Virus record (IMG/VR): IMGVR_UViG_3300022468_000843
From: an uncultured virus (IMG/VR IMGVR_UViG_3300022468_000843)
Lineage: Duplodnaviria; Heunggongvirae; Uroviricota; Caudoviricetes
Reading direction: 5' to 3' (one strand)
DNA length: 32,230 nucleotides
A program made the translations under genes and the position numbers. The notes below the pieces were generated by a model that made no database searches, was not told the DNA's origin, and saw nothing but the letters and a program-made list of their open reading frames with translations. Positions 4,593 through 28,699 of this stretch are shown here, piece after piece. Position 1 is the first letter of the stretch, and every line of letters starts with the position of its first letter.

Positions 4593-5237
4593 TTAAGCGA
4601 GGGCAACCTTCTGGAGAATGCCCGCATCGATGGGCCAGCCGTTACGCAGGCATGCATCGATCGTGTTCAGTTCGGTGCCGGAGATCTTCTTGGCGGCGTA
4701 GGCCGCGTTCGACTTCGCCAGCAGCTCACCAGGGGTGATGTTGCCGTCTTCCGCACCCGAGGACTTGGCGAGCACATCGGCAACGCCGGGCTTGTCGGCG
4801 ATCGTGACCAGCGTCTTGCGACCGCGGCCCTGACCAGCCAGCGTGCGGACTTCGGCCTGCAGCGACTTGATCAGCTCGTTCTGCTTGCCCATCGCGCCGG
4901 CCATCGTGGTCAGCGCCTTGGCGAGAACGCCATCGGTGCTGTCCTGGCGGGCCATGAGCGACTTCACCAGCTCGGTGGCGTCGATCATTTGGTTTCCGTC
5001 GGCGTCAGCGCCCAAGGACTTACCGAAGTCCTGGCCATCTTCATCGCCTTTGACGTCATCGTCGTCGCCATCCATGACGGGGGCGTCAACGCCAGAATCG
5101 GCGGCGGCAGCGGCCACAGTCTTGTCGTCGGCGGCAGCGGGTGCGGCCTTGGCGAGCGTGTCCGTGCCTTCCGCGACTTGCGCGAGCGACTTCAACAGCT
5201 CGTCGAAGTTGCTTTCGTTGTTTTCAACACTCATCAT
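4593..5237 (-). CDS. Capsid scaffolding protein
   Basis: Acidic, coiled-coil-like, located between protease and capsid genes; eight [L/F]-x-K-[S/A] repeats. Confidence 0.7.
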   Translation of the reverse strand: MMSVENNESNFDELLKSLAQVAEGTDTLAKAAPAAADDKTVAAAAADSGVDAPVMDGDDDDVKGDEDGQDFGKSLGADADGNQMIDATELVKSLMARQDSTDGVLAKALTTMAGAMGKQNELIKSLQAEVRTLAGQGRGRKTLVTIADKPGVADVLAKSSGAEDGNITPGELLAKSNAAYAAKKISGTELNTIDACLRNGWPIDAGILQKVALA

Positions 5238-6449: not shown

Positions 6450-6679
6450 CGGCGCACCTCGGCAAGGCAAACCGCGCGCAGACCGCTGCTCTGGATGTTG
6501 TAGCAGCGCCCGGGGTCGCGATGAGCCATGGCCAGGCAGTAGGCGCGGGCGTCGGGGCTTCCGACGCCGTAGCATGCACTGGCGGCGGTTGAGGCGACGG
6601 CGGAGTGAGGCGCCACCAGCAAAGCGGCGGCGTAGGCGATCAGAAGGATGATGGTGCGCATCGGGCGAATGTAGCTCAA
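6446..6679 (-). CDS. Small secreted Cys-containing protein
   Basis: Signal-peptide-like hydrophobic N-terminus, then two C-Y-x(10)-C-L-A repeats. Confidence 0.65.
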   Translation of the reverse strand: MSYIRPMRTIILLIAYAAALLVAPHSAVASTAASACYGVGSPDARAYCLAMAHRDPGRCYNIQSSGLRAVCLAEVRR

Positions 6680-13763: not shown

Positions 13764-14263
13764 AACATTGCTCCTATCCACTCACCCGGCTGGGTGATGA
13801 CCATCTTGTTGCTTTTCGACCTGTTCATTCGCCTCGGTATCACCTGGCAGTTATTCCAAACATGCAGGCCGCTGGCTTCCTTGGCCTTCACAGGGATCAT
13901 GTGATCCGCCTGCCACGCAAAGCCAGTAGCAAGCGATCGTGCGACGCTTAGGCTCATCGCCTCCTGCCACACGAAACAATCCAGCTCGCCGAACCAGCAC
14001 GGAACAGAGCGCTTCACGTTTTCATGCCGGACTCGTGCTGCCGCCTTGAAGCCGGAGGGATCCTGCGCGTATCGGCGAGCCTGTTTTGCCCTGGCGTTTG
14101 CGCGCCTTTTTTCTATGTTTTCGGCATAGTAACGACGCTGACGCTCGCGGCTTTTTTCGAGATTTTCGGCGTACTTCTCTCGCTGCGCTGAATTCAGGGT
14201 GTCCCTGTTATTCAGCCAGTAACGGCGGTTGTACTCGCGCGCGGCGTCTACATTGGCGCTCAT
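13760..14263 (-). CDS. HNH endonuclease (homing type)
   Basis: WQADHMIPV...SGLHVWNNCQVIPRRMNRSKSN; basic helical N-terminus; ATGA overlap with the portal stop. Confidence 0.85.
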   Translation of the reverse strand: MSANVDAAREYNRRYWLNNRDTLNSAQREKYAENLEKSRERQRRYYAENIEKRRANARAKQARRYAQDPSGFKAAARVRHENVKRSVPCWFGELDCFVWQEAMSLSVARSLATGFAWQADHMIPVKAKEASGLHVWNNCQVIPRRMNRSKSNKMVITQPGEWIGAML

Positions 14264-15987
14264 GGCTCCACCGAGAAAACAGGCAGCCCGAAGGACTTCT
14301 GCATGTCCGGGCCGTTGCCGTCGTCACCATCGGGGCCAGCGGGCCCGCCAGGGCCGGGCTGACCACCGCCGAAGGGCGGAGCACCTCCGCCCTCTTCATC
14401 GCCGCCGTCGGCCCCGGGAGGGCCGCCGTTGGGGCCGGGTTGACCTGGCGTGCCGTAGTCCTCGCCTGCGGCCTGCTGGCTTTGCATGTAGATGCCCATC
14501 AGCGGCTGGTACAGCGGGGCGTCCGCCCAGTCTTCCTTGATTTCTTCCTTGCCCATGGCCTTGCGGGCTTCGTTCCAGGTGCTGGTGGTCTTTTCCTTGT
14601 CCCAGCGCGTGGCGGGATCTTCCTCGTCCAGACCGGTCCAGCGGAAGCAATACTTCTCGCCGAACTCCGACACGATGTAGTCGGAAAACAAGTCCTCGTA
14701 GTGCGCCAGCAGCGGGCGCAGGCCCTTGTCCTTCGAGTTGACCAGCTTCTCTTCGGTGTCCGAGCCGGACAGCGACGAGGTGCCCGCGGTGAACGACTCG
14801 AAGTTGATCTCGTCCGGCGCGATGCCGTAGATCGCGCAGATGATCGACGTGAGGAACGTCATCCACTTGGCGAACATGATCTCGTTCACTTCGACGCCGA
14901 AGTTTTCAAACGAAGCCTTCGACTCCTGGTCCTTCGAAATCATCACCGGGAGCGACCACGCGTTGTTGATGCCGCGCACCATCGCGTTCCAGTAGCGACG
15001 GAAGGACGCCAGGTCGTTCTGGTCGTAGTTGCCGGACAGGTGCAGCATGCCCTTCGGGATGCTGTTCTTGTCAAAGTAGCTGGTGTTGTAGGTGAACGCG
15101 TTCAGGAAGCCGGTCACGGCGCGCACCAGCAGCTCGGGTTCGGCCAGGCCATACCCTCCCACCAGGACGTCCGTGCGCGGGTTGCGCGGCACGTAGATCA
15201 GATCGTCGAAGGTGTAGGCGGCGCGGATGTTTCCATCGACCACCTGCAGCGCGAAAATCTCGTCCTCATCCCGGTAGCCCTGGTCGCTGGCCAGGCGGAT
15301 CGTTGCACCGTCCACGGCATAGAAGCCGTCAAGCCCCAGGGACTTGTCGCGCTTGTATTCCGTCTCGATCGGGGCGCTGTCCATGGTCAGCGTGTCGCGT
15401 ACCGACTTCGCCATGAACTGCGAAAAGTTGTCCCGGCGCAGGCGCGCGCGCTGGCGCGGGTTGCGCTCCCAGCCGTTGTTCGTGAAGAAGCCCTGCAGCA
15501 GGCTGACGGTTTGCTGCTCGTCCTTGCCCAGCTTGGCGTTCGCATCCTTGAGGGCGATCTGGAAGCCGGGGCCGGTACCGCCGCTGTTGGGGCGCAGGAA
15601 CCGCTGCACCTGGCGCACGCGGGTCATGACCACGGCGCTGAGCACGGGCGTCTGGTCGACCATTCCGCGCAGCATGTCGAAGTTCATGCCGGACCAGCGC
15701 TCGCGCCACTCGCCCATCGAGTTCCCATAGCTGTCGTTCAGCCAGACCGACTGCATGCCGGGCTTGCCTTCCTTGATCGCCTTGCTCGGGAACGGCACGA
15801 CGTTCGGCTTTGACAGCGCCTTGTGCATCTCTTGCTCTTGGTACTGCTCCTGCATGAACTGCACGATCGGCAGCATGTCGGGCACGCTGGACGGCATGGC
15901 GGCGGCTTGCGCCTCAGCCATGGCTTGCGCGCGCTCGTCACCAGGCGCCGAGCCATTGAAGGCGGTTGTAAGTGCAGTTTCAGCCAT
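14260..15987 (-). CDS. Portal protein
   Basis: Follows the terminase; motifs FYAVDGATIRL, LIYVPRNPRTD...GYGLAEPE, YFDKNSIPKGML and TWNEARKAMG are typical of phage portals. Confidence 0.9.
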   Translation of the reverse strand: MAETALTTAFNGSAPGDERAQAMAEAQAAAMPSSVPDMLPIVQFMQEQYQEQEMHKALSKPNVVPFPSKAIKEGKPGMQSVWLNDSYGNSMGEWRERWSGMNFDMLRGMVDQTPVLSAVVMTRVRQVQRFLRPNSGGTGPGFQIALKDANAKLGKDEQQTVSLLQGFFTNNGWERNPRQRARLRRDNFSQFMAKSVRDTLTMDSAPIETEYKRDKSLGLDGFYAVDGATIRLASDQGYRDEDEIFALQVVDGNIRAAYTFDDLIYVPRNPRTDVLVGGYGLAEPELLVRAVTGFLNAFTYNTSYFDKNSIPKGMLHLSGNYDQNDLASFRRYWNAMVRGINNAWSLPVMISKDQESKASFENFGVEVNEIMFAKWMTFLTSIICAIYGIAPDEINFESFTAGTSSLSGSDTEEKLVNSKDKGLRPLLAHYEDLFSDYIVSEFGEKYCFRWTGLDEEDPATRWDKEKTTSTWNEARKAMGKEEIKEDWADAPLYQPLMGIYMQSQQAAGEDYGTPGQPGPNGGPPGADGGDEEGGGAPPFGGGQPGPGGPAGPDGDDGNGPDMQKSFGLPVFSVEP

Positions 15988-16017: not shown

Positions 16018-18648
16018 CTACTCCCGACGCAGGAAACCAACGCAGCCGGGGTCGGTTTCCTTTGTTTTCATGAACACCTCGGTGCAGTAGCCCGACACAT
16101 CGTCGCGGTTGGCGCACCGCCCGCAGGTGTCGGCGATCGCCACCTCGGCGACGGCAAGAGCCTTCGGCATGCCCGCCACGGCGGCCACGTGCTCGGACAT
16201 TTCGCCCCGAGGCGTCAGCGGCGCGCCATCGGGCAGCAGGAAAGTGGACGTGCCGTGCGCGCGGGCCCAGGCCACATCGCACAGCATGTTTGCGTAGCTA
16301 GTGTGCGGGTCTATCCCCACTTTCACTACCCGCCGTTTGAACTTCTTCTCTTCCTCGTCCTTTTCGGCCACCAGCGCGGTGCGCGTGAAGTGGAAGAAGG
16401 CGTACTCCTTGCACACAGCAGCCATGCGGCGCTTGCCCTTTTCGAGCACCTCCTGCACCAGGCCGTCGGGATCCGGGAACAGGCACATCTTGCTCGCGAA
16501 CCGGGCCATGGACACCTGCATGCACTTGTACTGGTCCAGGCGCACGGTGTAGCGGTCGCGCAGATCTTCGTCGGTGCGCCGCTCGGACACGGTGAGCTGC
16601 GGGGCGTCGCCCCAGGCCAGCATGTCGCCGTCCATGTTGCCGTAGCCGGCCAGGAACACCTTGCCGTTGTGCCGGCGCGCGAAGGACTTGGCGCTGTCGT
16701 AGTTGGGCAGCGCTTCCACCACGCAGATCTGCACGCCGTAGGCCTCCATCAGCTCGTCGCAGCGGCGCCAGGGCGAAGCGTCTGGGTCGGCCGCCGTGGG
16801 TGCGATGAAGATGTACTCGACGTGGATGACGGCCTGCCGCCCGTCGGGCATCCGGCGTTTCAGGATGGCCACGATGAACGAGCCCATCTGGTCCAGGCCC
16901 ATGAACGTGCCCTTGCCATTGCGCTCCCACACGAGGCCAGCCTTCATGCCCTCCTTGGCGCACTCGCCGAGCATTTCAAGGTTCACCGGCACCTGCGACG
17001 GATCGGTGTAGGGCTTGCCCAGCACGCGATTGAAGAAGTTCTTCATGTCGTCGGCTTCGTGGTAGCCCTCGATGATCTTGCGCGGCGTGATGGTCGGCGA
17101 CAGGAACTGCGGGTAGTGCACCGAGCGAATGGACGCCTCGGGCTCCTTCGGGATCCACTCGCCGTCCTGCGGGTCGTCGATCCAGCCCTCGCACTTGTGG
17201 CACCGGTACCGGTACTCGCCCACCATGCCCGCTTCGCGCTCGCGCTCGTTCGCGCGCGGGGCTTCCGGGTCGTACCCAATGCACTGCGGGAAGTGCTCGT
17301 CCAGCACCTGGAGCTCGCCACAGCACGGGCAGCGCGAGTGGAACTGGTGCTGCGTGCCCTTTTTGTACCACCAGTGGATATCGGAATCAGGCCAGTTCGC
17401 CGTCGAGCCCATCAGCGTGTAGCGCACGCTCGAGGCGGACATACGCTCGCGGGTTTTTTCCATGTCCGCGATCGACATCTCTTGCACTTCGTCGAAGGAC
17501 ACGATGTCCATGGGGTTCGACTCGGTGGACACCTTGCCGGTGGTCCAGAGGAAGTGGAAGCGGGACGAGCCCAGCTCGCGCACCAGGACGTTGCCCTCGC
17601 CACCGCGGCGGCCCTTGGCGGCGTTGTCGGTCATCAGGGCGTGCACCTGGGGGATGGTGCGCACCACGGGCATAAAGCGAATCGAGGACTTCGTGGTGGC
17701 CGCGGTGATGGCCGGCATGAACATGCCGATCTTCGCAGGCGAGAAGCGCAGCGCCATGTAGATCATGGCCAGCATTTCCATGACGGTGAAGCCCACCTGC
17801 GTGCACTTCATGATCACGTCCACACGGTCGAAGGCCTCGGTCACCGACGACGGGATCAGGTCGTAGATGAACCGCATGGTGGGGCGATCGGACAGCGTGA
17901 ACGGGTGGCCGTCCACCTTGAGGCCGTCGGACTCCAGGCGCTCGCACCACATCAGGAACGTCTCGCCCGGGTGCACGATCCGCTGCTCGGCCGTCAGCTC
18001 GATGGCCACATCCAGGAACTCCGCCTCGAACCGCTGCAGGCGCTCCGGCTCGCTGACGGTATCGCACTCGTCCCACACCTCCTTCGATAGGTGCGGGTTG
18101 CACCAGGACGCGAGCTGCCACGACGACCACTCCGGGTCGCCCTGGGCCATGCGCAAGAGCTTGTAGAAGTGGTTCTTTTTGCCGTACGCCCCGGACAGGA
18201 TCCAGGCCGAGCCCTTGTGGGTCTTGAGAGCGGGCCGCAGGTGGTCCTCCCACAGGTCCAGCAGGGCATGCGCGTGGCGCGCGTCGTCCACCACGATCAG
18301 CCCGTACTGCTCGATGACGTCCGGCAGGGCATCCAGGGAATAGAAGTCGATGACGCCGCCCGAGGTGAGCTCGACGCGGCGCGCGTTCACCCGGCGCTTG
18401 AGCAGCGGGTCGATCAGGCGGAGGATTTGCCGGCGGGCCTGAACCAGGCTGTTTTCGTCAGCGGAGAACCACGCGACGGGCGCGCGGCTGTTCAGCGCGC
18501 CCTTGCTGGTGGCCAGCAGGGCTTCGATACCAAGCGTGGTCTTGCCGCCCTGCTCGCCCATGGCGACGATGTTGTACCGGCTCGCCCGGTCCAGAATTTT
18601 TTGCTGGGCCGGGTGCGGCGTGGGAAGGGCAATCTTGACTTGAGCCAT
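16018..18648 (-). CDS. Terminase large subunit (lambda GpA-like) with an extra N-terminal terminase-ATPase-like module
   Basis: MKCTQVGFT Walker A, SFDEV Walker B, GSTAN, CPCC...CHKC zinc motif, FFNRVLGKPY and MGLDQ nuclease motif; the N-terminal ~215 aa read PHPAQ...GEQGGKTT...IVVDDA. Confidence 0.88.
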   Translation of the reverse strand: MAQVKIALPTPHPAQQKILDRASRYNIVAMGEQGGKTTLGIEALLATSKGALNSRAPVAWFSADENSLVQARRQILRLIDPLLKRRVNARRVELTSGGVIDFYSLDALPDVIEQYGLIVVDDARHAHALLDLWEDHLRPALKTHKGSAWILSGAYGKKNHFYKLLRMAQGDPEWSSWQLASWCNPHLSKEVWDECDTVSEPERLQRFEAEFLDVAIELTAEQRIVHPGETFLMWCERLESDGLKVDGHPFTLSDRPTMRFIYDLIPSSVTEAFDRVDVIMKCTQVGFTVMEMLAMIYMALRFSPAKIGMFMPAITAATTKSSIRFMPVVRTIPQVHALMTDNAAKGRRGGEGNVLVRELGSSRFHFLWTTGKVSTESNPMDIVSFDEVQEMSIADMEKTRERMSASSVRYTLMGSTANWPDSDIHWWYKKGTQHQFHSRCPCCGELQVLDEHFPQCIGYDPEAPRANEREREAGMVGEYRYRCHKCEGWIDDPQDGEWIPKEPEASIRSVHYPQFLSPTITPRKIIEGYHEADDMKNFFNRVLGKPYTDPSQVPVNLEMLGECAKEGMKAGLVWERNGKGTFMGLDQMGSFIVAILKRRMPDGRQAVIHVEYIFIAPTAADPDASPWRRCDELMEAYGVQICVVEALPNYDSAKSFARRHNGKVFLAGYGNMDGDMLAWGDAPQLTVSERRTDEDLRDRYTVRLDQYKCMQVSMARFASKMCLFPDPDGLVQEVLEKGKRRMAAVCKEYAFFHFTRTALVAEKDEEEKKFKRRVVKVGIDPHTSYANMLCDVAWARAHGTSTFLLPDGAPLTPRGEMSEHVAAVAGMPKALAVAEVAIADTCGRCANRDDVSGYCTEVFMKTKETDPGCVGFLRRE

Positions 18649-18686: not shown

Positions 18687-19592
18687 TTACTGCCCGATGG
18701 ACGCTTTCACCTTGAGCTTCGGCTTGGCTTGGGCCTTTTGGGATCCGGATGCATAGGCGTGCTTGAGCGCGTGCTTCAGCGAGCCCTTGCTGACATCCTT
18801 GAAGTCTTCGTGATCGCGCCCCGCCTGCTCCAGGGAATCGAAGTGGGCAAAGTGCTTCGCCGCCTCGGACACCACGGCATCGCGGTGCGCGCCGCCCTTT
18901 GAGTGGCCTGCGCCCGCATCGTAGGCGTGATGCAACGCTGCCTTGAGCCCGCCCTTGCCGGTGTCCACAAAATCCTCGCGGTCGCTGCCGACCTCATCGA
19001 AAGAATCCAGATGCAGGTGCTTCTTGGCCGCCGCGTGGGCGACCTCGTTCATGTGGGCATCTTTGCCCGACTGCGCGACGTGATTCAACGCGCCAGCGTG
19101 ACGATCCGCAACACCCTTGTCGTGCAGGACGATGTGGTGCTTGCCACCTGGCTCCTTGATCTGATGGCCGCCATGCTTGAATGGAGCGACAGAGTAGCCG
19201 CCAGTCTTTGTCGAGTTGGCCGCCATGGCTGCGCGCACATCATCCCCGGCCGCACGCGAGGCGGCAGGGTCGGCCCGCTGGGGAACACCACGCGCAGGAG
19301 TCACATGCTCATGGTCAACGTGCAAGGTGCCGAGCTTGTCGTGCTGGACAACCGACTTGCCGTCCTTCGCCCCCTGGTACTTGGCAATCGTTTTCTTGCC
19401 GGTTTCCGGGTGCTTCACGAACACTGTCTGTCCAGCGGAGAAGCCCTTGGGGTGGGCACCAGCCGCCGGCTTCGGCGCGGCCGCCTGCTTGCCGTTGTCA
19501 TGCGCCTGCACCATGACGCCATCCTTGCGGGTGAAGGCGGCAACCTGGGACTTTGCCAGCATGCTGGCGTCAACGACGAGTTTCTTGGTCAT
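18687..19592 (-). CDS. His/Lys-rich multidomain protein, putative internal head protein
   Basis: N-terminal LAKSQVAAFTRKDG, an SH3-like module, then two tandem ~45-aa repeats (KHLHLDSFDEVGSDREDF...LKAALHHAY). Confidence 0.75.
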   Translation of the reverse strand: MTKKLVVDASMLAKSQVAAFTRKDGVMVQAHDNGKQAAAPKPAAGAHPKGFSAGQTVFVKHPETGKKTIAKYQGAKDGKSVVQHDKLGTLHVDHEHVTPARGVPQRADPAASRAAGDDVRAAMAANSTKTGGYSVAPFKHGGHQIKEPGGKHHIVLHDKGVADRHAGALNHVAQSGKDAHMNEVAHAAAKKHLHLDSFDEVGSDREDFVDTGKGGLKAALHHAYDAGAGHSKGGAHRDAVVSEAAKHFAHFDSLEQAGRDHEDFKDVSKGSLKHALKHAYASGSQKAQAKPKLKVKASIGQ

Positions 19593-20051: not shown

Positions 20052-20843
20052 TCAAAACAACGACTTACCACCACCCCACTTTGCAGGCGGGGGTGCTGGC
20101 TTTTTGGGCGCGGGGCCGGCGCCGACGGCCTCGGCCACCGGATGGTCGGCCCAGCCGTTGAGCAGGTCGTACAGGTCACCCTTGGGGCATAGGTGCACAG
20201 CCTGGCTTTCCCAGCCGGCAGCAATCGGGGTGCCGCCGACCCGCACGGCGCGGTACATGCGCGCGACGGACGTGGTGCGCTCGTAGTCCCCGACAAAGCC
20301 GGTGATACGGACCTGCAGCCCCGTCTCCTCAAACGCCTCTTTGATGGCCGAGGCCTGCATAGAGAGCCCGTCCTCTACGGTGCCCTTGGGCCAGGTCGCC
20401 TCGTAGCCGCCAAACTTGTTCGTTGGGGCTGTGAGCCACACCCGCCCGTCCGGCTCTTCGATGATGACCCCAGCGCCGATCGACTTGCCAGGCTTGGGCT
20501 TGATCGGTGGCTCATCGAGGTTGTCATCCACGCCATCGACGTAGTCCCAGCCCTCGGCTGTGGTTGGGTGGTCGCGCCAGCGGCGGAAGGGCACGCCGTT
20601 CAGCTCAAGCGGGACATCTCCGCCAGGCACGAACGTGGCCACCGCATCGGCGTTGTGCCAGGTGCTCGGGGCGGACGCATGCGTGGGCTGCTTGATCAGC
20701 ACGGCCTTGCCCTCGTGGTCCAGCTCCGGGTGGTGGTGTGGCTCGGGGTGGCTGGGGCCTTCGCCATCACGCTCATACGGACGAACGTAAGTGGATCCGC
20801 GCACGTGGCCCTTTACATGGGCTTTGACCAGATCTTCAGTCAT
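20052..20843 (-). CDS. NUDIX hydrolase with N-terminal extension
   Basis: NUDIX box GTVEDGLSMQASAIKEAFEETGL; start MTEDLVKAH overlaps the upstream stop. Confidence 0.88.
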   Translation of the reverse strand: MTEDLVKAHVKGHVRGSTYVRPYERDGEGPSHPEPHHHPELDHEGKAVLIKQPTHASAPSTWHNADAVATFVPGGDVPLELNGVPFRRWRDHPTTAEGWDYVDGVDDNLDEPPIKPKPGKSIGAGVIIEEPDGRVWLTAPTNKFGGYEATWPKGTVEDGLSMQASAIKEAFEETGLQVRITGFVGDYERTTSVARMYRAVRVGGTPIAAGWESQAVHLCPKGDLYDLLNGWADHPVAEAVGAGPAPKKPAPPPAKWGGGKSLF

Positions 20844-21345
20844 TTCCAACCACCCCCAGCAGCGTGCGGGCCATGGACTGCACGGAGCCCACCAGGGATT
20901 CTTGCACCTCATCTTCCGGGGCGTTACCCGAGGCTTCGCGCAAGAGGTCGTAGACCTGGTGCACGAACACGGCGAGCGCCTGGGCGATCAGCTTGGCATC
21001 GTCGTCCTCTGGTTGCAACGAGGCCACCATCTGCAGGCGCAGGTGGTCGGCAAGCGCCTTGCCGTTCCACCCGGGCACGGTGATGTAGGCATCACCCTGA
21101 CCAGCGAAGGCCCGGCCCAGCTCCAGGCAGCGGGCCATGTCGGCGGCCGAGGCATCCGACGGGGTGAGTACGCCATGGCCGACCTCGTCGAAACGCGTGA
21201 TCACATCCGAGGAAAACTCGCGCAGGATGCGGTCCACATCGGCCAGGTTGCCCAGGTACGGACGCCCGCCAGACCCCGCTCGCAAGGACTCAAGGAGCCC
21301 GGAGGGGTCTGTGTGGCGATCCAGTTTTTCCTCTGCCATGGGCAT
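20836..21345 (-). CDS. Acidic helical hypothetical protein between the ART and NUDIX genes
   Basis: 169 aa, starts 3 nt after the ART gene stop and overlaps the NUDIX start. Confidence 0.7.
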   Translation of the reverse strand: MPMAEEKLDRHTDPSGLLESLRAGSGGRPYLGNLADVDRILREFSSDVITRFDEVGHGVLTPSDASAADMARCLELGRAFAGQGDAYITVPGWNGKALADHLRLQMVASLQPEDDDAKLIAQALAVFVHQVYDLLREASGNAPEDEVQESLVGSVQSMARTLLGVVGND

Positions 21346-21348
21346 CCT

Positions 21349-24300
21349 TTACGTTGGGAGAATGACGGCTTCAACGATATGCGTGCCGTGTTGACCGAAA
21401 CCATCGCTGTCCGGGCCCTTTTTCACAGCCACGATCAGCATGCGGGTGCCGGGCGGCAGGATCATTTCATCCTCGCTCGCATGCTTGGACAAGGCGCCGC
21501 CACCAGGCTTTGACCCAGGACCAACCCACAAACCCTTCACCCCGGGGCCAACGTGCAGCTTGAGCTGGATGTTGCCACTCCAAGACGACGGCCGGATCGA
21601 GGTGGACATGATCGCGGGCTCCTGCAGGATTTTCCCACTGGACGCGAGCATGGCCTCCAGATCGGCGCCGTGCAGGTTGATTTTACGCGACAGCACCGTG
21701 CCAGGCGCAATCTCGTGCCCAAGAGTTTTCAGCGCCTCGCCGGCGGACTTCGCTGCGCCCGTCGGATTGCCAGCCCAAAGCGAGCTGTTCATGGCGTGGT
21801 ACGAGCTGCCGGTGTAGCTCTGCACGGCCTGTTGCTGGGTGGCCGGCATCTTGGCGATAGAGGCCTGCGCCGCGGGCGAGTAGGTCTGCTGGCTGAGCGT
21901 GCCGCCTTGCGACGAGTGCGTGATCTTTGGTGGCAGCGCCAGGTCTTCGAGTTTCACCGTGCCAGGGGTGCCGAGCACGATGTACTTGCCCAGCTTCTGC
22001 GCGGCTGCGCTCGATGGCGCGCCGTGGTGCGCGGGATAGGCTGCGTTCAGCGAGTGCAGCGGGTGCCCACCATCAAACCTGAACCGCTTGGGCGGGTTCA
22101 TCTGGTAGTTGATTTCGTTGATGACCTGCTGCGCGTAGCCCTTGATGTGCTGGCTCGGATGTTCGAGCACCGGCTTCGAGCCCGACACCGCGCCCGTGTC
22201 CTTGTCGTACACGTTGGCCTGCAGGGACTTGATGGCGTCCAGGTTGCCGGTTTTGGCAGCCTGGTAGATTGCCTGCGCCGCTTCCTCGTTGGCCTTGTTC
22301 AAGAACTCCTTGCTGGACGGCCCGCTCTTGCCAGAGCCGCCCCAATTCAGGAACGAAGGCGGCGCGCTGACCTTGGACGGGTCGAAAACAACGGCCTTTT
22401 TCTTTTTTGCCGCCTGCGGATAGCGCTTCAGGAGGTCAGCCTTGCGCGCGATCAGCGTCTCGGCCAGCTTCGCCTTTTGATCCTGTGTGCCAGGACCGTG
22501 CTGGTTCACCATCGCGCGAATGGTCACGTCGCTGATTGCAGCCACCTTGGCAACCGACGCAGTGATGTCCGCCTTTGTCATCTTGCCGAAAACGGCCGCG
22601 GCGTGTGGGTTTTTGGCCGCATCGCGCAGAGTGTCGATCTCGTCGACCTTGACGCCGAAGGGCTTCTTTTCGCCCTGGGCGCGGTACTCCAGCGATCCGC
22701 CAGCATCGACCCGGTGGGCCTTGCCGTCGGGGCCCACCTGAAGATTGTCGAGCGACATGCCGACCACGTCCCAGTTGCCCAACCAGGCATCGACAGCGAA
22801 GCCGGAATGCACGCCGTCGACCTTGGCCAAAGCTGCCGCGCTGGACGCCTTTTTGATATCGGTCCATTTGGTGGCGATGCCGACCTTGCCGCCCTTGCTC
22901 ACCAGGATGGCGTCTTGCCCGGATAGGCCAGCCAGGCCGTACAGCTTGGCGGCGAGCACTTCGGACTTTGCTGTGGCCTCGTCGCTGGGGAACTTGCAGT
23001 ACCACTCCTGGCCGGTCGGATCCTTGAACTTGCCGCCCGGGTTCGAGCCGCCCTGCCCGCCGGTCTGGACCCACGAGTCCATGGAAGGCAGGCCGTTCGC
23101 CCCAACGGTGAACGCGGCAGGCTGCGTGGCGGCTGGCTTGGCGGCGGGAATGTCCGAGGCCTTGAAGGCGGGATCGAGCTTTTGCATCGCCGCAAGCGGC
23201 GGGGCGTCGTACCCGGCTGCGACCATCTTCTTCAACAGATCTGGCAGAGAGGCGCCGATCAGCGGATCCGGGTCGTCGTCAAAATCGAAGTGGAACTCCG
23301 CCTGTCCTTCCTCCGCGTTCCAGGCGATGATCCCGACATCGTTGGTCAGCGAAGGGTGGCCGGACATACCCATGTCGCTGGCGGCGTAGCTCCACCCGCC
23401 CATACCGCCCAAAGGAGCCACCTGGCCAGCGCCCATGGCTGCCAGCAGCTTGTCGGCCAGCTTTTGCGTGATGGGCATCTTGCCGGCGTTGGACGCCTTC
23501 CATTTTTGGATAGCGGTGGCATCACCAGCCAGGGCGGCATGTTTGAGCACCTTGGCGAACTCCGACTTCGAGTAGCCGGAGGTTTTGGCCTTGATGTTTT
23601 CCAGATCGCCGGGGGTCAAGGCCTTTGGACCCTGGCCCACCTTCACCCAGTGCCCATCTTTGAGCACCAGCATGCCGTCGGCGCCCTGCTTGGTGTCGCC
23701 TTCCTTGGGGCCCGTTTCAGGCGCACCAGCGGACACCGTGACCTTGTGCCCAAAGATGGCGCCCTTGGACTCATAGCCCTTCTTCAGCTTTTCCTGCTTC
23801 AGCGCCCCGGCGGCACTTTGCGCCGCATCTACGGTGGGAAAGCTCTTGACCGTTTTTTGCTGGGTACCACCGATCTTCCCGTACTCGGTGACCATGTCGG
23901 CGCCACCCGAGGCGTTGGGGGCAACATACACCGACCAGGACTTGTTGTGGCCGCCCGTGGTGTTGTGCAGGATGAACTTGGGCGCGGTGACGGTCTTGGG
24001 GGCGGCGGAGGCAGCCGCTGGCGCTGGTGCCGGCGCGGGCGCGGGCGCAGGGGTTGGGGCCGGCGCGGGCTTCACCGGTACCGCTGCTGTGGCGCCAGGC
24101 GTGCCCAGGGCAGCCAGGGCGGTCTGCGCGGTGAGCACCTGCTTCTTGGCATAGGTCTGCTTGGCCGCGCCCTTGGCGTCGATGAACGCCTGCAGGCCGG
24201 CCTTGTCGCCCGCGAAGGCCATGGCATGGATCTTGTCGAGCGCGGCGTTGTGGCTCTTGGCGTTGGTGTTTTCCGCCGGCAGCTTGAGCTTGAACCAGGG

Positions 24301-25986
24301 GATGGATTGCAGGTTCTGGAGCTGCTGGGCGTTGAGTCCGCCGGATTCTGGTGTGACAACGGGAGTCGCAGCCGGCGCGGGTTGTGGGGCGCTTTCCGGT
24401 TTCGGCTGTGACAGCTTTGCCTGCATGAGCGACAGCAGCAGCTTGGCATGCACCAGCGGCTTGTAGGTTTCGTTGCCTGGGGTATCGAGGTCGTTGATGA
24501 AACCCTGCAGGCCGCGCACATCGCCGGCGAGCGCGAAGTTGTTGGCCTTATTGACGTTGGCCTCGGCGCTGGAGCCGATGAAACCGATGAAGGGCAGCTC
24601 ATACTCGGTCAGGGCGCCTGGCTTGGCTTCCGCGTCCGGCATCTGCACCACCAGCGACATACCGAACTTCTTGGAGAGCACCTTCTCGGCAGCCATCGCC
24701 TGGGCGCCAAACCCGGCGGCATCGAACGCGTCCTGCTCGTCCTCGCCAGATTCCAGCGCGGCCACGAACTTGTCGACCTTCGGACCCATGTCTTCGGTGA
24801 GCACCGCCTTCAGCGGGGCGGCCATGGGAGCGTAGGGGCTGGCCTGCCCGCCCTGCTTCACCCAGTGGCCATCCTTGAGCACCAGGGTGCCGCCATCGGC
24901 GCCGGGCTTGGTGTCGCCCTCGTTCGGGCCGCTGGGCGCGCCAGGCTTGGAGGACGAGGCGGGCGGTACGCCGGTACCATCGGACCCGCCACCGGTCGCG
25001 TGCGCCACCGCGGCATCGTGCAGTGCGAGCAGCTTCTTCGAGTTGGCTGTCTTGCCGAGCCAGGTGTTCGGTACCTTACCCTTTGCGTTGGGCTTGAGGC
25101 CGTCGGCCTTCATGTCCTCCAGGACGACGCCGTTGCCAGCGTGCCCGTGGTCGATGACCTTCTGCGCGACATTTTCGTAGTGCTTCTTCACGCCGACGGT
25201 TTGCTTGCCTTCCTCGAAGGTGGGCATGGTCAGGGGGCCGGCGGGGGCAGCGGCCGGCGCCGGCGCCTTGGCCTGCAGCTCCGCCAGCTTCTTCTGCGCG
25301 TAGGCCACGATCTGCGGGTGCTCGGGGTTGTTCTTGGCCACGTTGGACAGGAACTCGACGTCACCCTCGGCGGCCTTGTCGTCCAGCGTGTTCATGACGT
25401 GCTGCGCCAGCGGGGCGAGCGGACCAGGCTCCTGCAGGCCATCAGTCACGGGCGGGGCGGCCTTGGGCGCCAGGTGCTCAGGCAGGCCAGACGGGTGGGG
25501 CACGGTCGGTACCGACTGCAGGGCGGCGTGCGTGCCCGCCTTCTGGCCGGGCGCAACCTGGTGCTTTGAGCCGTGCAGCCCGAGCAGGTGGTTCGCGATC
25601 TTGGCGAGCTTCTGGCCGTAGGTGTTCGAGCCGTAGGACACGGCCAGCATGCCGGTGACGTTGCCGGCGTCCGAGAGCTGCTGCAGGTTCGCCAGCGCCT
25701 TGTTGTACGACGGCGCGTTGGTGTTGGTGTCGGGCAGCTTGAGCGCGTCCCATTGCTCCTGCGTGAAGTGCGCAACGGCAGCATGGTCGCCGCCAGACTT
25801 CGGGTGGGCCGCGATCGGCGCGCCCTTGGGGGCGGGCTTGTCCTTGTGGAGTTTGTGCCACCGGCCGTTCAGCAGGTAGTAGCCACCCTGGTGCTTATAC
25901 ATCCCGTCGTGGTGGTGGGCCGCTTTGAGCAGAAGACCGCGGGAAACAACCAGGCGAGCGTGTGGAGTGGCGGCATTTTGCGTCAT
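21349..25986 (-). CDS. Giant multidomain effector: repeats + WGR-like + PI3/4-kinase/HipA-like + C-terminal R-S-E ADP-ribosyltransferase
   Basis: ART: SYTGSSYHAMNSSL, VLSRK, MSTS, EDEMILPPG. Kinase-like: GGSNPGG, WYCK, SEVLAAKLY, DAWLGNWD..G..DN, VDAGGSL. WGR-like: HNKSW...EYGKIG...EKLKKGY. Confidence 0.85.
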   Translation of the reverse strand: MTQNAATPHARLVVSRGLLLKAAHHHDGMYKHQGGYYLLNGRWHKLHKDKPAPKGAPIAAHPKSGGDHAAVAHFTQEQWDALKLPDTNTNAPSYNKALANLQQLSDAGNVTGMLAVSYGSNTYGQKLAKIANHLLGLHGSKHQVAPGQKAGTHAALQSVPTVPHPSGLPEHLAPKAAPPVTDGLQEPGPLAPLAQHVMNTLDDKAAEGDVEFLSNVAKNNPEHPQIVAYAQKKLAELQAKAPAPAAAPAGPLTMPTFEEGKQTVGVKKHYENVAQKVIDHGHAGNGVVLEDMKADGLKPNAKGKVPNTWLGKTANSKKLLALHDAAVAHATGGGSDGTGVPPASSSKPGAPSGPNEGDTKPGADGGTLVLKDGHWVKQGGQASPYAPMAAPLKAVLTEDMGPKVDKFVAALESGEDEQDAFDAAGFGAQAMAAEKVLSKKFGMSLVVQMPDAEAKPGALTEYELPFIGFIGSSAEANVNKANNFALAGDVRGLQGFINDLDTPGNETYKPLVHAKLLLSLMQAKLSQPKPESAPQPAPAATPVVTPESGGLNAQQLQNLQSIPWFKLKLPAENTNAKSHNAALDKIHAMAFAGDKAGLQAFIDAKGAAKQTYAKKQVLTAQTALAALGTPGATAAVPVKPAPAPTPAPAPAPAPAPAAASAAPKTVTAPKFILHNTTGGHNKSWSVYVAPNASGGADMVTEYGKIGGTQQKTVKSFPTVDAAQSAAGALKQEKLKKGYESKGAIFGHKVTVSAGAPETGPKEGDTKQGADGMLVLKDGHWVKVGQGPKALTPGDLENIKAKTSGYSKSEFAKVLKHAALAGDATAIQKWKASNAGKMPITQKLADKLLAAMGAGQVAPLGGMGGWSYAASDMGMSGHPSLTNDVGIIAWNAEEGQAEFHFDFDDDPDPLIGASLPDLLKKMVAAGYDAPPLAAMQKLDPAFKASDIPAAKPAATQPAAFTVGANGLPSMDSWVQTGGQGGSNPGGKFKDPTGQEWYCKFPSDEATAKSEVLAAKLYGLAGLSGQDAILVSKGGKVGIATKWTDIKKASSAAALAKVDGVHSGFAVDAWLGNWDVVGMSLDNLQVGPDGKAHRVDAGGSLEYRAQGEKKPFGVKVDEIDTLRDAAKNPHAAAVFGKMTKADITASVAKVAAISDVTIRAMVNQHGPGTQDQKAKLAETLIARKADLLKRYPQAAKKKKAVVFDPSKVSAPPSFLNWGGSGKSGPSSKEFLNKANEEAAQAIYQAAKTGNLDAIKSLQANVYDKDTGAVSGSKPVLEHPSQHIKGYAQQVINEINYQMNPPKRFRFDGGHPLHSLNAAYPAHHGAPSSAAAQKLGKYIVLGTPGTVKLEDLALPPKITHSSQGGTLSQQTYSPAAQASIAKMPATQQQAVQSYTGSSYHAMNSSLWAGNPTGAAKSAGEALKTLGHEIAPGTVLSRKINLHGADLEAMLASSGKILQEPAIMSTSIRPSSWSGNIQLKLHVGPGVKGLWVGPGSKPGGGALSKHASEDEMILPPGTRMLIVAVKKGPDSDGFGQHGTHIVEAVILPT

Positions 25987-27208: not shown

Positions 27209-28699
27209 TTAGAACGGGTCGGCGGGATTGCCGGTGGCGGGCGCAACCGGCGCCGTGACGGCCTCGACGGTGGCGCGGACAGCGCCCTCGGCGGGAAAGG
27301 GTTCGCCGGTGACGGCATGGACCGCGCGGCGGCCGGTGAGCATTTCCCAGCGGCGCACAGCCACATCAACGAACTTCGGATCCAGGTCGCAGACCCGGGC
27401 GATCAGGCCCATGCGGTCGGCGGCGATCAGCGTTGTGCCGGAGCCGGAAAACTGGTCGATGACGATATCGCCCGGCCGGCTGGACGGCTTCATGAGCTTT
27501 TCCCACAGGCCCACGGGCTTCGTGGTCGGGTGCAGCTCAGAGCGCGAGGGCTTGTCGTGGTAGACCACGGACCCGGGCATTTCCTCCAGTGTGGCCTGGC
27601 CATCGACGATGAGGACGTTGTCGCCCACGGTGATCGCCCAGCGGCCATCTTCGAGCCGGCGCACGGGGCCGTGCTCGCCGTACTCGACCACGGTCGTGCG
27701 CTTGCGGCCACCATACCAGCGGTGCGCGGCGCCAGGCTTCCAGCCGTACAGGATCGGCTCGTGCTGCCACTGGTAGTCCGAGCGCCCGAGCACGAGCGAG
27801 TTCTTGCGCCAGATGAGGCAGCCGGACAGCTTGAAGCCGGCCGCCCGGAACTCGCTGCGGAAGTTCAGGCCCTCGGTGTCGGCGTGCGCCACGTAGATCG
27901 GGGCGCCGGCCTTCATGCACGCGAACGCGGTGTCGTAGGCGCCGCGCAGGAACTCGCGGAACTCCTTGTCGCCCATGTCGTCGTTTTTGATCTTGCCGGC
28001 CAGCTTGGATTCGTAGGCCACGTTGTACGGCGGGTCCGTGATGCACAAGTCCGCCAGCTCGCCCTGCATGAGGCGGTCCCACAGCTCCTGAGACAGCGAG
28101 TCGCCGCACGCCACGCGGTGCGGGCCGCACACCCAGATATCGCCGACCATGGACACCGGGTTGTCCGGCGTGGGCGGTACCGCCTCGGGATCCGCGCCGC
28201 CCTCGGGCATTTCGGGCTCGGGCATGCCCTCGAACATCTTGGCGAGATCTTCCTCGGCGAAGCCCAGCTCGGCCTCCAGGTCGAAGCCGGCCGAGCGCAG
28301 GTAGTCCGTTTCGGCTTTGAGCATTTCGAGGTCGTAGCCGCCGCCGATTTCAGCCGACCGGTTGTCCCAGATGACCAGGGCCCGGCGCTCGTCCTCGTTG
28401 AGGTGCGACAGGTCGATGGTGGGCACCCGCTTCAAGCCCAGGTGGTTCGCCGCCAAGATCCGGCCGTGGCCAGCAAGGATGCCGTCGTCGGCGGTGAGCA
28501 CCGGGTTCGTGAAGCCGGCCGGGCCCTTCATCGAGCGAGCCAGGGCCTCGATCTGGGCCTGGCTGTGCTTGCGCGAGTTGCGCGCGTACGGCAGCAGCTC
28601 GGCGACGAGGCGCAGCTTGATCTCGGTCGGCATGCGCACGCCGTCGATGAACTGGGCGCCGTTGTTGGCGTCCGCGGCGAGTTTCAGGTGGTCGGCCAT
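27209..28699 (-). CDS. ParB-N domain fused to N6-adenine/N4-cytosine DNA methyltransferase (beta class)
   Basis: LLPYARNSRKH...GFTNPVL...LAGHGR (ParB-like); TDPPYN catalytic motif; HPTTKPV; DQFSGSGTT SAM-binding motif. Confidence 0.92.
   Translation of the reverse strand: MADHLKLAADANNGAQFIDGVRMPTEIKLRLVAELLPYARNSRKHSQAQIEALARSMKGPAGFTNPVLTADDGILAGHGRILAANHLGLKRVPTIDLSHLNEDERRALVIWDNRSAEIGGGYDLEMLKAETDYLRSAGFDLEAELGFAEEDLAKMFEGMPEPEMPEGGADPEAVPPTPDNPVSMVGDIWVCGPHRVACGDSLSQELWDRLMQGELADLCITDPPYNVAYESKLAGKIKNDDMGDKEFREFLRGAYDTAFACMKAGAPIYVAHADTEGLNFRSEFRAAGFKLSGCLIWRKNSLVLGRSDYQWQHEPILYGWKPGAAHRWYGGRKRTTVVEYGEHGPVRRLEDGRWAITVGDNVLIVDGQATLEEMPGSVVYHDKPSRSELHPTTKPVGLWEKLMKPSSRPGDIVIDQFSGSGTTLIAADRMGLIARVCDLDPKFVDVAVRRWEMLTGRRAVHAVTGEPFPAEGAVRATVEAVTAPVAPATGNPADPF

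What the first reader, a model, noticed from the sequence alone, without database searches (positions are those of the whole stretch)
21349..23980. One polypeptide joins WGR-like, kinase-like and Arg-type ADP-ribosyltransferase domains
Seen: WGR-like domain (~23770-23980, with YGK in place of WGR), PI3/4-kinase/HipA-like domain with candidate catalytic K, E, D-x-N and D residues (~22430-23085), and a C-terminal ART with R, STS and E-x-E (~21349-21830). Known: E-x-E R-S-E ARTs modify arginine; T4 Alt is a virion-injected ART acting on RNA polymerase; WGR domains bind nucleic acid and activate PARPs. Inference: an injected, possibly nucleic-acid-gated, dual-modification effector for host takeover or anti-defence. 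I do not know a characterised protein with this architecture.
Basis: partly seen in the sequence, partly recalled or inferred. Interest (0 to 1): 0.78.

Follow-up and report, generated by a model that had tools for sequence, protein, structure and literature searches.

The report
Phage giant kinase plus ADP-ribosyltransferase effector
A 1545-residue phage protein encoded just upstream of the DNA-packaging genes joins a nucleic-acid-binding WGR domain, an unannotated HipA/CtkA-like kinase and a toxin-type ADP-ribosyltransferase, and belongs to a large uncharacterised family of probable capsid-delivered host-modifying enzymes.

Summary
One ORF (window 21349-25986, minus strand, 1545 aa) carries three domains. 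The first is a Pfam WGR domain at residues 674-741. The second is a domain at about residues 965-1197 with no Pfam, NCBIfam or PDB sequence match. It folds confidently (pLDDT 94.8) as an atypical protein kinase closest to H. pylori CtkA, CotH, PI4KII-alpha and HipA, and its Gly-loop, K, E, D, N and D residues are essentially invariant. The third is a C-terminal C3/VIP2/Alt-type R-S-ExE ADP-ribosyltransferase at residues 1352-1545.

The kinase, linker and ART form the conserved core of a very large phage family. WGR is an optional accessory, present in about 35-42% of relatives.

The gene lies in a phage morphogenesis region. A Nudix gene follows it in 52 of 61 informative related loci, and relatives fuse the kinase domain to MuF, portal, ART or Nudix modules.

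My best reading is a polyvalent host-modifying effector, probably head-packaged, with two catalytic activities. Packaging and injection are inferred, not shown. PARP-style nucleic-acid gating is not supported.

I rate it a new variant of a known kind (polyvalent or head-packaged phage ART effectors). Interest 0.6.

The parts
21349..25986 (-). Whole ORF, 1545 aa (P0001), stop codon included
   Evidence: The N-terminus is conserved in relatives (consensus).
25537..25899 (-). N-terminal region (res 30-150), unknown fold; contains the first 'l.l.nGrWhK' hairpin-like motif and the first helical motif
   Evidence: Covered by BLAST in about 62-69% of 240 relatives. No Pfam hit and no usable Atlas hit.
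24853..24918 (-). First copy of the 'GDTKxGADGxLVLKDGHWVK' motif (res ~357-378)
24001..24081 (-). Ala/Pro-rich low-complexity linker (res ~636-662) preceding WGR
   Evidence: Translation; 0% BLAST coverage in relatives with SEG masking on.
23764..23967 (-). WGR domain (res 674-741), with YGK at 702-704
   Evidence: Pfam PF05406 45.0 bits vs cut-off 22; PDB 2ra8 E 6e-4; motif position.
23638..23703 (-). Second copy of the 'GDTKxGADGxLVLKDGHWVK' motif (res ~762-783); conserved in the family consensus
   Evidence: 68% coverage.
22396..23094 (-). Atypical protein-kinase-like domain (res ~965-1197): G-loop 979-985, K998, E1009, D1066, D1073, D1080-N1081, R1092, D1094
   Evidence: Model pLDDT 94.8; CtkA Z 15.5, CotH 13.6, PI4KII-alpha 12.4, HipA 11.5; conservation in 44-46 of 46 relatives; 4623 cluster representatives at E<=1e-3.
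22084..22389 (-). Conserved small alpha/beta linker domain (res 1200-1301), no known fold match
   Evidence: Model; best VIA Z 5.6 over this part; 83-95% coverage in relatives.
21352..21933 (-). C3/VIP2/Alt-type mono-ADP-ribosyltransferase (res 1352-1545): R1434, S1461-T1462-S1463, E1505-D-E1507
   Evidence: Pfam PF03496 35.2 bits; PHROG 3895 and 802; Vip2 E 5.6e-15; C3bot2 Z 17.2. ExE in 48 of 48, S1463 in 47 of 48, R1434 in 37 of 48.
20836..21345 (-). 169-aa lineage-specific protein; start codon 3 nt after the big ORF's stop
   Evidence: 41% identical to Dolphis gp118. 39 clusters only. Found in 19 of 76 related loci.
20052..20912 (-). Nudix hydrolase with an N-terminal extension (likely true start near 20843)
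   Evidence: Pfam NUDIX 44.6 bits. 63% identical to Dolphis gp119. Downstream on the same strand in 52 of 61 informative loci.
16018..18648 (-). Large terminase subunit (context)
   Evidence: PHROG 675 E 3.9e-91; Pfam GpA_ATPase.
14260..15987 (-). Portal protein (context)
   Evidence: PHROG 12 and 15361.

Best explanation
The ORF encodes a polyvalent phage effector: a beads-on-a-string protein with two intact catalytic modules. One is an atypical kinase of the CtkA/CotH/PI4KII/HipA structural group. The other is an Alt/VIP2/C3-type ADP-ribosyltransferase that is probably arginine-specific. An optional WGR module probably binds nucleic acid.

The most likely mechanism is as follows. The protein is made with the morphogenesis genes, incorporated into the capsid, and released into the next host cell with the DNA. 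There it phosphorylates and ADP-ribosylates host proteins to favour takeover or to blunt defence. The syntenic Nudix enzyme acts in the same NAD/ADP-ribose pathway.

Shown here: domain folds, catalytic-residue conservation, family size, gene neighbourhood, and fusions in relatives. Inferred: catalytic activity, packaging and ejection, targets, and the role of WGR, which I read as tethering or localisation on DNA or RNA rather than allosteric gating.
For: Domain identities.

Catalytic residues: kinase K in 44 of 46, and E, D, N, D each in 46 of 46; ART ExE in 48 of 48.

Kinase-ART coupling: 208 of 240 relatives have a BLAST match to this ART. Several of the remaining 32 carry other ART families: PF03496, PF01129 or DRAT-like.

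Phage morphogenesis context: TerL, portal, protease and major head protein lie on the same strand.

Head association in relatives: MuF in 7 of 40 scanned. BFVD structural matches include proteins labelled HK97 portal, head morphogenesis, minor capsid and MuF-ART fusion. In Sixama the kinase-like gp73 lies directly after the portal and beside the gp75 ART, before protease and capsid. In DSL-LC01 the domain sits inside a 3289-aa protein between portal and protease.

Nudix linkage: 52 of 61 loci with at least 4 kb downstream; 63% identity to Dolphis gp119. One uncultured-phage protein labelled Nudix matches both the kinase model and the linker-ART model, and P0200 fuses Nudix, MuF and the kinase-like domain.

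Precedent, from papers I read in sections: T4 Alt is head-packaged and injected, and Alt/VIP2 ARTs and Nudix proteins are fused to MuF or portal, or encoded by packaging genes (PMC5512222 section 9; PMC9503650 section 27 and passages).
Against: There is no direct evidence of virion incorporation. No proteomics was found for any relative: the Mecenats66 paper has none, and the Touem01 paper does not discuss the gene.

This protein itself has no MuF, portal or other known head-targeting domain. Its N-terminus matches nothing known.

The gene lies upstream of the terminase, next to a ParB-methyltransferase and small genes, not between portal and protease. It could therefore belong to an earlier transcription unit.

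The kinase domain does not reach any Pfam kinase model, so the enzymatic assignment rests on a predicted fold plus motif conservation.

R1434 is K in 10 and G in 1 of 48 aligned relatives. This may be misalignment or real divergence.
Confidence: 0.6

Rival explanations
1. The domain content is the same, but the protein is not packaged. It acts inside the producing cell during infection, as T4 ModA and ModB do, modifying host proteins or phage assembly factors. Its position next to the packaging genes would then reflect timing only.
For: No MuF, portal or targeting domain in this protein. The gene sits upstream of TerL, next to a ParB-methyltransferase and small ORFs. No proteomics was found. 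PMC9503650 section 27 itself notes that such contexts might instead mean action on the packaging apparatus.
Against: Relatives repeatedly fuse the same kinase domain to MuF or portal, or place it between portal and protease. TerL lies downstream in 38 of 50 informative loci.
Confidence: 0.25
2. The kinase-like domain is not a protein kinase. It phosphorylates a small molecule or lipid, for example an NAD- or ADP-ribose-derived signal, or it serves as a non-catalytic recognition module. In that case the kinase, ART and Nudix would form a nucleotide-signal-processing counter-defence unit rather than a protein-modifying one.
For: Structural neighbours include the lipid kinases PI4KII-alpha and MavQ, as well as other atypical members of the fold. 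Nudix is tightly linked in 52 of 61 loci and occasionally fused. PMC9503650 (passages read) argues that phage Nudix proteins mainly counter soluble ADPr derivatives.
Against: The top structural matches (CtkA, CotH, HipA, Fam20, actin-fragmin kinase) are described as protein kinases in PMC3974213 (passage read) or from my recall. The ART is closest to protein-modifying C3 and VIP2 enzymes. The full K/E/D/N/D set argues against a non-catalytic role.
Confidence: 0.2
3. The locus is a toxin-antidote or superinfection-exclusion module. The ART and kinase would be toxic enzymes held in check by the 169-aa protein encoded 3 nt downstream.
For: The start codon is 3 nt after the stop. The pairing is conserved in Dolphis. 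Two of the close ART structural matches are toxin-immunity pairs, 8za7 and 6drh.
Against: The 169-aa protein is present in only 19 of 76 related loci and forms only 39 clusters, whereas the large protein family is far wider. The context is a lytic-type morphogenesis operon. Binding could not be tested.
Confidence: 0.08

Closest known systems
Polyvalent proteins of phages and conjugative elements (Iyer et al. 2017, PMC5512222)
   Same: Several unrelated enzymatic and nucleic-acid-binding domains sit in one large polypeptide, encoded by a phage beside its packaging genes. Relatives carry the hallmark MuF and ART-PolyVal (PF18760) domains.
   Different: [quoted passage not shown] Its kinase is a Ser/Thr/Tyr-type domain lacking the C-lobe, from Verrucomicrobia-Chlamydia and Bacteroidetes. 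Here the ART is R-S-E and the kinase is a CtkA/HipA/PI4KII-like fold with a helical C-terminal part. The main text does not mention WGR (0 occurrences). I did not see its supplementary domain lists.
T4 Alt and head-packaged Alt/VIP2-family phage ARTs (PMC9503650 section 27)
   Same: R-S-ExE ART. PHROG 802 'Alt-like' matches at E 7.5e-7. BFVD matches include T4-type Alt/RNA polymerase ADP-ribosylases. The gene lies near the packaging genes.
   Different: Alt has no kinase or WGR domain. Similarity to Alt is weaker than to C3 and VIP2. Packaging is not shown here.
Helicobacter pylori CtkA (PDB 3akj/3akl), and the CotH, PI4KII-alpha and HipA atypical kinases
   Same: Best structural matches to the middle domain: Z 15.5, 13.6, 12.4 and 11.5. 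The secondary-structure order and the positions of the G-loop, Lys, Glu, catalytic Asp/Asn and metal-binding Asp are the same. CtkA is also encoded on a mobile element, the tfs3 ICE (PMC5536186, abstract seen in the listing).
   Different: Sequence identity to these is only 11-17%. Neither the protein nor the family profile gives a sequence-level hit. The catalytic loop has a longer Asp-to-Asn spacing (D1073 to N1081).
Clostridial/Bacillus C3 and VIP2-type ADP-ribosyltransferases
   Same: Fold (Z 16-17, rmsd 2.5-3.0) and aligned R, STS and ExE motifs.
   Different: Those are secreted toxins of eukaryotic cells with their own delivery domains. This is the C-terminal module of a phage protein aimed, by inference, at bacteria.
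PARP1-3 WGR-regulated poly-ADP-ribose polymerases
   Same: A WGR domain and an ART superfamily domain in one polypeptide.
   Different: The ART here is R-S-E, not H-Y-E. WGR lies about 600 residues upstream of the ART behind flexible linkers, and no helical regulatory domain was detected. WGR is absent from most relatives.

Membership tests
WGR domain (Pfam PF05406) | Match to the family HMM above the curated cut-off | tested here: met
   45.0 bits vs cut-off 22, E 1.2e-11, res 674-741.
WGR domain (Pfam PF05406) | Literal Trp-Gly-Arg motif | tested here: not met
   The motif reads Y702-G703-K704. The solved bacterial WGR-containing protein 2ra8 aligns over that same stretch, so the variant lies within the family's range.
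WGR domain (Pfam PF05406) | Nucleic-acid binding | not testable with these tools
   Needs EMSA or similar.
R-S-E ADP-ribosyltransferases, Alt/VIP2/C3 group (Pfam PF03496) | Match to the family HMM above the cut-off | tested here: met
   35.2 bits vs 23.4; family profile vs Vip2 E 5.6e-15.
R-S-E ADP-ribosyltransferases, Alt/VIP2/C3 group (Pfam PF03496) | ART fold | tested here: met
   C3bot2 Z 17.2, rmsd 2.5, 172 aligned; VIP2 Z 16.3; model pLDDT 92.9.
R-S-E ADP-ribosyltransferases, Alt/VIP2/C3 group (Pfam PF03496) | Catalytic Arg, Ser-Thr-Ser and Glu-x-Glu | tested here: met
   R1434, S1461-T-S1463, E1505-D-E1507, aligned to the VIP2 motifs. ExE is present in 48 of 48 relatives.
R-S-E ADP-ribosyltransferases, Alt/VIP2/C3 group (Pfam PF03496) | NAD-dependent transfer to arginine | not testable with these tools
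   Arginine specificity is inferred from ExE by established knowledge of the clade (recalled).
Protein-kinase-like fold, CtkA/CotH/PI4KII/HipA group | Bilobal kinase fold | tested here: met
   CtkA Z 15.5 (rmsd 3.5, 206 aligned), CotH 13.6, PI4KII-alpha 12.4, HipA 11.5; Foldseek CtkA E 1.4e-6; model pLDDT 94.8.
Protein-kinase-like fold, CtkA/CotH/PI4KII/HipA group | Gly-rich loop, beta-3 Lys, alpha-C Glu, catalytic Asp/Asn, metal-binding Asp at the expected structural positions | tested here: met
   K49 ends strand 45-49, E60 lies in helix 54-69, D124 and N132 precede strand 133-135, and D145 follows strand 141-143 (domain numbering). Conserved in 44-46 of 46 relatives. Residue-by-residue superposition on a solved kinase was not available.
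Protein-kinase-like fold, CtkA/CotH/PI4KII/HipA group | Match to a curated kinase HMM (HipA_C, HipA_2, PI3_PI4_kinase, APH) | tested here: not met
   No Pfam hit at E<=10 for res 950-1210 and none in NCBIfam. Some distant relatives do reach HipA_C, HipA_2 or APH, mostly as summed weak hits.
Protein-kinase-like fold, CtkA/CotH/PI4KII/HipA group | Phosphotransfer activity | not testable with these tools
   Needs an enzyme assay.
Polyvalent proteins (Iyer et al. 2017) | Two or more domains of disparate biochemical activity in one polypeptide of a phage or conjugative element | tested here: met
   WGR, kinase-like and ART domains in a phage morphogenesis region.
Polyvalent proteins (Iyer et al. 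2017) | Association with packaging or late genes | tested here: met
   TerL and portal lie 2.7-7 kb downstream on the same strand. A TerL homolog is downstream in 38 of 50 informative related loci.
Polyvalent proteins (Iyer et al. 2017) | Delivery into the host with the DNA | not testable with these tools
   Inferred only, from MuF and portal fusions in relatives.
PARP-like WGR-gated ART | H-Y-E catalytic triad with a WGR domain adjacent to a helical regulatory domain | tested here: not met
   The ART is R-S-ExE. WGR is about 600 residues upstream behind low-complexity linkers.

The most novel reading that the evidence does not exclude
The kinase, the ART and the neighbouring Nudix may not be independent passengers. 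They could form an obligate three-enzyme module, delivered from the capsid, that acts in sequence on one host target or on one NAD-derived defence signal. For example, ADP-ribosylation could be followed by Nudix trimming and phosphorylation, producing a modification the host cannot reverse. WGR-bearing versions would be tethered to the incoming DNA. The kinase would then define a new, very large, phage-specific family of injected kinases.
Probability: 0.15. Interest if true: 0.85.

Novelty: new variant of a known kind. Interest (0 to 1): 0.6.

Why it matters
Head-packaged ARTs are a predicted 'first-strike' strategy of phages, but only T4 Alt has been studied.

This family adds a second catalytic activity that current family libraries do not recognise. 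The kinase domain has no Pfam or NCBIfam model hit, yet it has 4623 cluster representatives at E<=1e-3 in a 1.84-billion-protein library and 490 stretches in IMG/VR. It is almost always coupled to an ART and a Nudix enzyme.

Cultured relatives exist in Pseudomonas putida phages. Virion proteomics, enzyme assays and knock-outs are therefore directly feasible. They could reveal new host targets or a new counter-defence route.

Tried and rejected
- **Sequence searches for the kinase-like stretch** against Pfam (E<=10), NCBIfam and PDB gave nothing, or chance-level hits only. The family profile reached ARTs but no kinase in PDB.
Nothing was folded, so the partner question stays open.
- **ESM Atlas** look-up of the N-terminal 170 residues gave no usable hit.
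- **Earlier scan notes** by place and by sequence held nothing.
- **Self-BLAST** printed no internal repeat pair. The five-copy helical motif rests on a pattern search and on an HMM built from those same five segments. They match it by construction, no sixth copy was found, and the 50-shuffle maximum was 0.4 bits.
- **BLAST of residues 1-960** against the seven MuF-bearing relatives gave no hit at E<=1. I therefore cannot say the N-terminus is a diverged MuF.
- **PARP-like allosteric gating by WGR** is rejected: wrong ART clade, optional domain, long flexible linkers.
- **Nudix subfamily** could not be assigned. The best matches were a Deinococcus MutT/Nudix family protein (PDB 1sjy, E 5e-5) and an Ap4A hydrolase, both far below the equivalog cut-offs.
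- **First sub-region scan** failed on an out-of-frame coordinate and was repeated in frame.
Full report
**What is there.** The interval lies inside a single 1545-codon ORF on the minus strand, window 21349-25986. The upstream gene stops 15 nt before the ATG. A 169-codon gene starts 3 nt after the stop, reading TAAAGGATG. Relatives share the N-terminus (consensus), so the start is about right.

**Setting.** The window is a phage morphogenesis region on one strand. PHROG matches identify the major head protein (3043-4551), head protease (5234-6139), a 1514-aa helicase (6676-11220), an endonuclease VII-like protein, the portal (14260-15987), the large terminase (16018-18648) and a Nudix protein. 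Upstream lies a ParB-like/DNA-methyltransferase fusion (Pfam). The assembly holding the window is one 55,162-base contig. The nearest named relatives are contractile-tailed phages of about 86-95 kb. They include Pseudomonas phages Dolphis and Jeremy (65% identity over 52% of the query), Touem01, Yersinia fHe-Yen8-01, Morganella Mecenats66 and Aeromonas ST4. In these the homolog is labelled 'ADP-ribosyltransferase' or 'hypothetical protein'. Myovirus morphology comes from PMC9503643 and PMC11256456, passages read.

**WGR.** Pfam PF05406 matches residues 674-741 at 45.0 bits against a cut-off of 22. The motif is Y-G-K. The only PDB sequence match, the Bacteroides protein 2ra8, aligns over that same stretch. 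The domain is flanked by Ala/Pro-rich low-complexity segments.

**Kinase-like domain.** Residues 950-1210 hit nothing in Pfam even at E<=10, nothing in NCBIfam, and only a chance-level row in PDB sequences. An exhaustive phmmer search found 4623 cluster representatives at E<=1e-3, and 1029 at E<=1e-30. The best 150 are nearly all long multidomain proteins, some with 2-5 copies of the domain.

With 45 relatives as the alignment, AlphaFold2 gave mean pLDDT 94.8 and pTM 0.89. VIA-align against 48,161 PDB representatives ranked the following:

| Match | Z | Notes |
|---|---|---|
| H. pylori CtkA | 15.5 | rmsd 3.5, 206 aligned |
| CotH | 13.6 | |
| PI4KII-alpha | 12.4 | |
| 7wcf (a kinase) | 11.6 | |
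| MavQ | 11.5 | |
| HipA | 11.5 | |
| Fam20 | 10.3 | |
| HipT | 10.2 | |
| Actin-fragmin kinase | 10.1 | |

Foldseek agreed, with CtkA at E 1.4e-6 and TM 0.60. PMC3974213 (passage read) reports the same CtkA, Golgi casein kinase and actin-fragmin kinase neighbourhood for PI4KII-alpha.

The secondary-structure order is the kinase one. The Gly-rich loop (979-985) sits between the first strands. K998 ends the third strand. E1009 lies in the following helix. D1073 and D1080-N1081 lie in the loop before two short strands, and D1094 comes right after them. In the 46-row alignment, K is present in 44 with 2 gaps, and E, D1066, D1073, N1081, R1092 and D1094 are in all 46. The protein is not a member of any curated kinase family by sequence.

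**ART.** Pfam PF03496 scores 35.2 bits against 23.4. PHROG 3895 and the Alt-like PHROG 802 also match. A profile of the family hits Vip2 at E 5.6e-15, followed by Vis, C3larvin, CdtA, ExoS, iota Ia, C2-I and C3. The family's R, STS and ExE motifs align to those of Vip2. The model of residues 1200-1545 (pLDDT 92.9, pTM 0.69) splits at a low-confidence loop. Residues 1352-1545 match C3bot2 (Z 17.2, rmsd 2.5, 172 aligned), C3stau2 (17.0), a Listeria ART toxin (16.4), Certhrax (16.3) and VIP2 (16.3). Residues 1200-1301 match nothing above Z 5.6. In 48 aligned sequences, E1505 and E1507 are invariant, S1463 is present in 47, and R1434 is present in 37, with K in 10 and G in 1. An ExE motif in this clade goes with arginine as acceptor. 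That is established knowledge which I recall and did not test.

**What is conserved.** I BLASTed the protein against the 240 relatives collected by similarity to the kinase domain. Those were restricted to 849-2704 residues. Coverage by segment was as follows:

| Segment | Covered in |
|---|---|
| Kinase domain | 99-100% |
| Linker | 81-88% |
| ART | about 82% |
| 'GDTK..KDGHWVK' motif before the kinase | 68% |
| N-terminal residues 30-150 | about 62-69% |
| WGR | about 35% |
| Most of residues 390-560 | under 10% |

208 of the 240 have at least 120 aligned residues of this ART. I scanned 19 of the 32 without it, and 11 more as part of its set of 21 distant relatives. P0169 and P0195 were not scanned. 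Those scans found other ARTs: PF03496 in P0123, P0141 and P0198; PF01129 in P0209; DRAT-like matches near the cut-off in P0171, P0174 and P0179. They also found MuF or WGR.

By the precomputed Pfam labels of the 120 best hits, 20 have WGR plus PF03496, 30 have WGR only, 39 have PF03496 only and 31 have neither. PF18760 (ART-PolyVal), PF13673 (GNAT) and PF01129 also occur. The triple architecture therefore recurs. The constant pair is kinase plus ART, and WGR is an accessory.

**Evidence on delivery.** None of it is direct. Across, 7 of 40 relatives scanned carry an N-terminal Phage_Mu_F domain: P0141, P0155, P0198, P0200, P0182, P0222 and P0234. Structural matches to the kinase model in BFVD include a 1201-aa protein labelled HK97 portal (TMq 0.70, 25% identity), ART-labelled proteins, Nudix-labelled proteins and, more weakly, a head-morphogenesis protein. 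Matches to the linker-ART model include a MuF-ART fusion, 'minor capsid' proteins and T4-type Alt enzymes.

In Gordonia phage Sixama the kinase-like gp73 follows the portal and precedes a separate 1285-aa ART, the protease and the capsid gene. In phage DSL-LC01 the domain lies in a 3289-aa protein between portal and protease. PMC9503650 (section 27 and passages) had already argued from such contexts that Alt/VIP2 ARTs and Nudix proteins are head-packaged. It estimated that about 44% of phage ARTs sit in packaging-type contexts.

Against delivery: this protein has no MuF or portal module. Its N-terminus is unassigned. It lies upstream of the terminase rather than between portal and protease. 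I found no proteomics for any relative.

**The Nudix link.** The two downstream genes are syntenic with Dolphis gp118 (41% identity) and gp119 (63%). IMG/VR holds 490 stretches that encode a relative of the kinase domain, and I fetched 76 loci. Of the 61 loci with at least 4 kb downstream of the match, 52 have a homolog of the window's Nudix on the same strand, 1454-2814 nt further on, median 1740 nt. Three of the nine 'misses' (L046, L055, L061) have a second kinase-like hit and did show a Nudix hit. Of the 50 loci with at least 9.5 kb downstream, 38 have a TerL homolog.

The 169-aa protein is much narrower: 19 of 76 loci and 39 clusters. One uncultured-phage protein labelled Nudix matches both models, and P0200 combines Nudix, MuF and the kinase-like domain. 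The Nudix subfamily could not be assigned.

**Mechanism.** The best-supported reading (0.6) is a polyvalent effector with two active enzymes. It is probably carried in the capsid and released with the DNA, and it modifies host proteins by phosphorylation and arginine ADP-ribosylation. Nudix would work in the same NAD/ADP-ribose economy.

I read WGR as a tether or localiser on nucleic acid, not a PARP-type switch. It is optional, distant and separated by flexible linkers, and the ART is of the wrong clade for that mechanism.

The rivals are the following:
- An intracellular, non-packaged enzyme of the ModA/ModB kind (0.25).
- A kinase-like domain that acts on a small molecule or lipid within an NAD-signal counter-defence unit (0.2). 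This concerns the substrate, not delivery, so it is compatible with either of the delivery readings.
- A toxin-antidote pair with the 169-aa protein (0.08).

**Comparison and novelty.** The class is known from comparative genomics as polyvalent proteins or head-packaged ARTs. Section 9 of the 2017 paper says Alt/VIP2 ARTs are not in genuine polyvalent proteins. The kinase it describes is a different, C-lobe-less type from other phyla. Neither that paper nor the 2022 survey mentions WGR (0 occurrences each). The 2012 polymorphic-toxin paper lists a different, lantibiotic-synthetase-type kinase.

Full-text searches for WGR plus phage, for HipA-like plus phage plus ART plus virion, and for phage, ART, kinase, packaged, capsid and ejected returned no description of this architecture. 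I did not see figures or the 2017 supplementary domain lists, which may name this domain.

I therefore rate it a new variant of a known kind. The most useful new point is a very large, unmodelled kinase family that travels with an ART and a Nudix enzyme in phage head modules.

Noticed in passing
window 6676-11220 (-): A 1514-aa protein sits between portal and head protease. Only its C-terminal third (res ~998-1449) matches helicase models (DEAD, SNF2-related, Helicase_C). PHROG 62 covers the whole length. It may be a second giant head-module (DarB-like) protein.
   Followed up: partly
window 27209-28699 (-): Fusion of a ParB-like nuclease/partition domain with an N6/N4 DNA methyltransferase (PHROG 498; Pfam N6_N4_Mtase). 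A homolog lies upstream of the kinase gene in 24 of 76 related loci.
   Followed up: partly
window 20052-20912 (-): The Nudix protein has an unassigned N-terminal extension of about 120-140 residues. At 63% identity to Dolphis gp119 it is more conserved than the large protein itself. The Nudix box reads KEAFEE, with Lys where Arg is usual (read by eye from the translation; the usual consensus is recalled).
   Followed up: partly
window 20836-21345 (-): The 169-aa protein has only a sub-threshold TetR_C_30 match (25.1 bits vs 26.3). It forms 39 clusters, found on contigs of the same lengths as those of the large protein.
   Followed up: partly
window 18687-19592 (-): A 301-aa protein with two DUF6900 repeats lies directly upstream of the terminase. 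Homologs were detected in only 3 of 76 related loci.
   Followed up: no
window 16018-18648 (-): The large terminase is unusually long at 876 aa. An extra N-terminal part of about 215 residues separately matches a terminase PHROG (phrog_2, res 9-215).
   Followed up: no
P0001 res ~86-134, 469-514, 571-615, 800-850, 1225-1275; and res 36-46, 368-378, 773-783: There are five copies of a helical motif (..N..A......A.AGD...L..F) and three copies of a short 'l.l.dG.W.K' motif. In the model, the copy at 1225-1275 forms the first helices of the small linker domain, which has no known fold match.
   Followed up: partly
proteins P0123 (3416 aa), P0195 (7004 aa); loci L046, L055, L059, L061, L066, L069-L071: Some relatives carry 2-5 copies of the kinase-like domain in one protein or locus. 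P0123 also has an APH-type match.
   Followed up: no
BFVD entry S4VPE6: A Pandoravirus dulcis protein labelled 'Kinase VIP2 domain containing protein' matches the linker-ART model at E 5e-8. This may be an independent kinase-ART pairing in a giant virus of eukaryotes.
   Followed up: no
L001 (Pseudomonas phage Dolphis 75125-93507): Upstream of the homolog, Dolphis carries an annotated MazEF pair and a PAPS reductase / DNA methyltransferase / adenylosuccinate synthase cluster, which may be a DNA-modification module.
   Followed up: no
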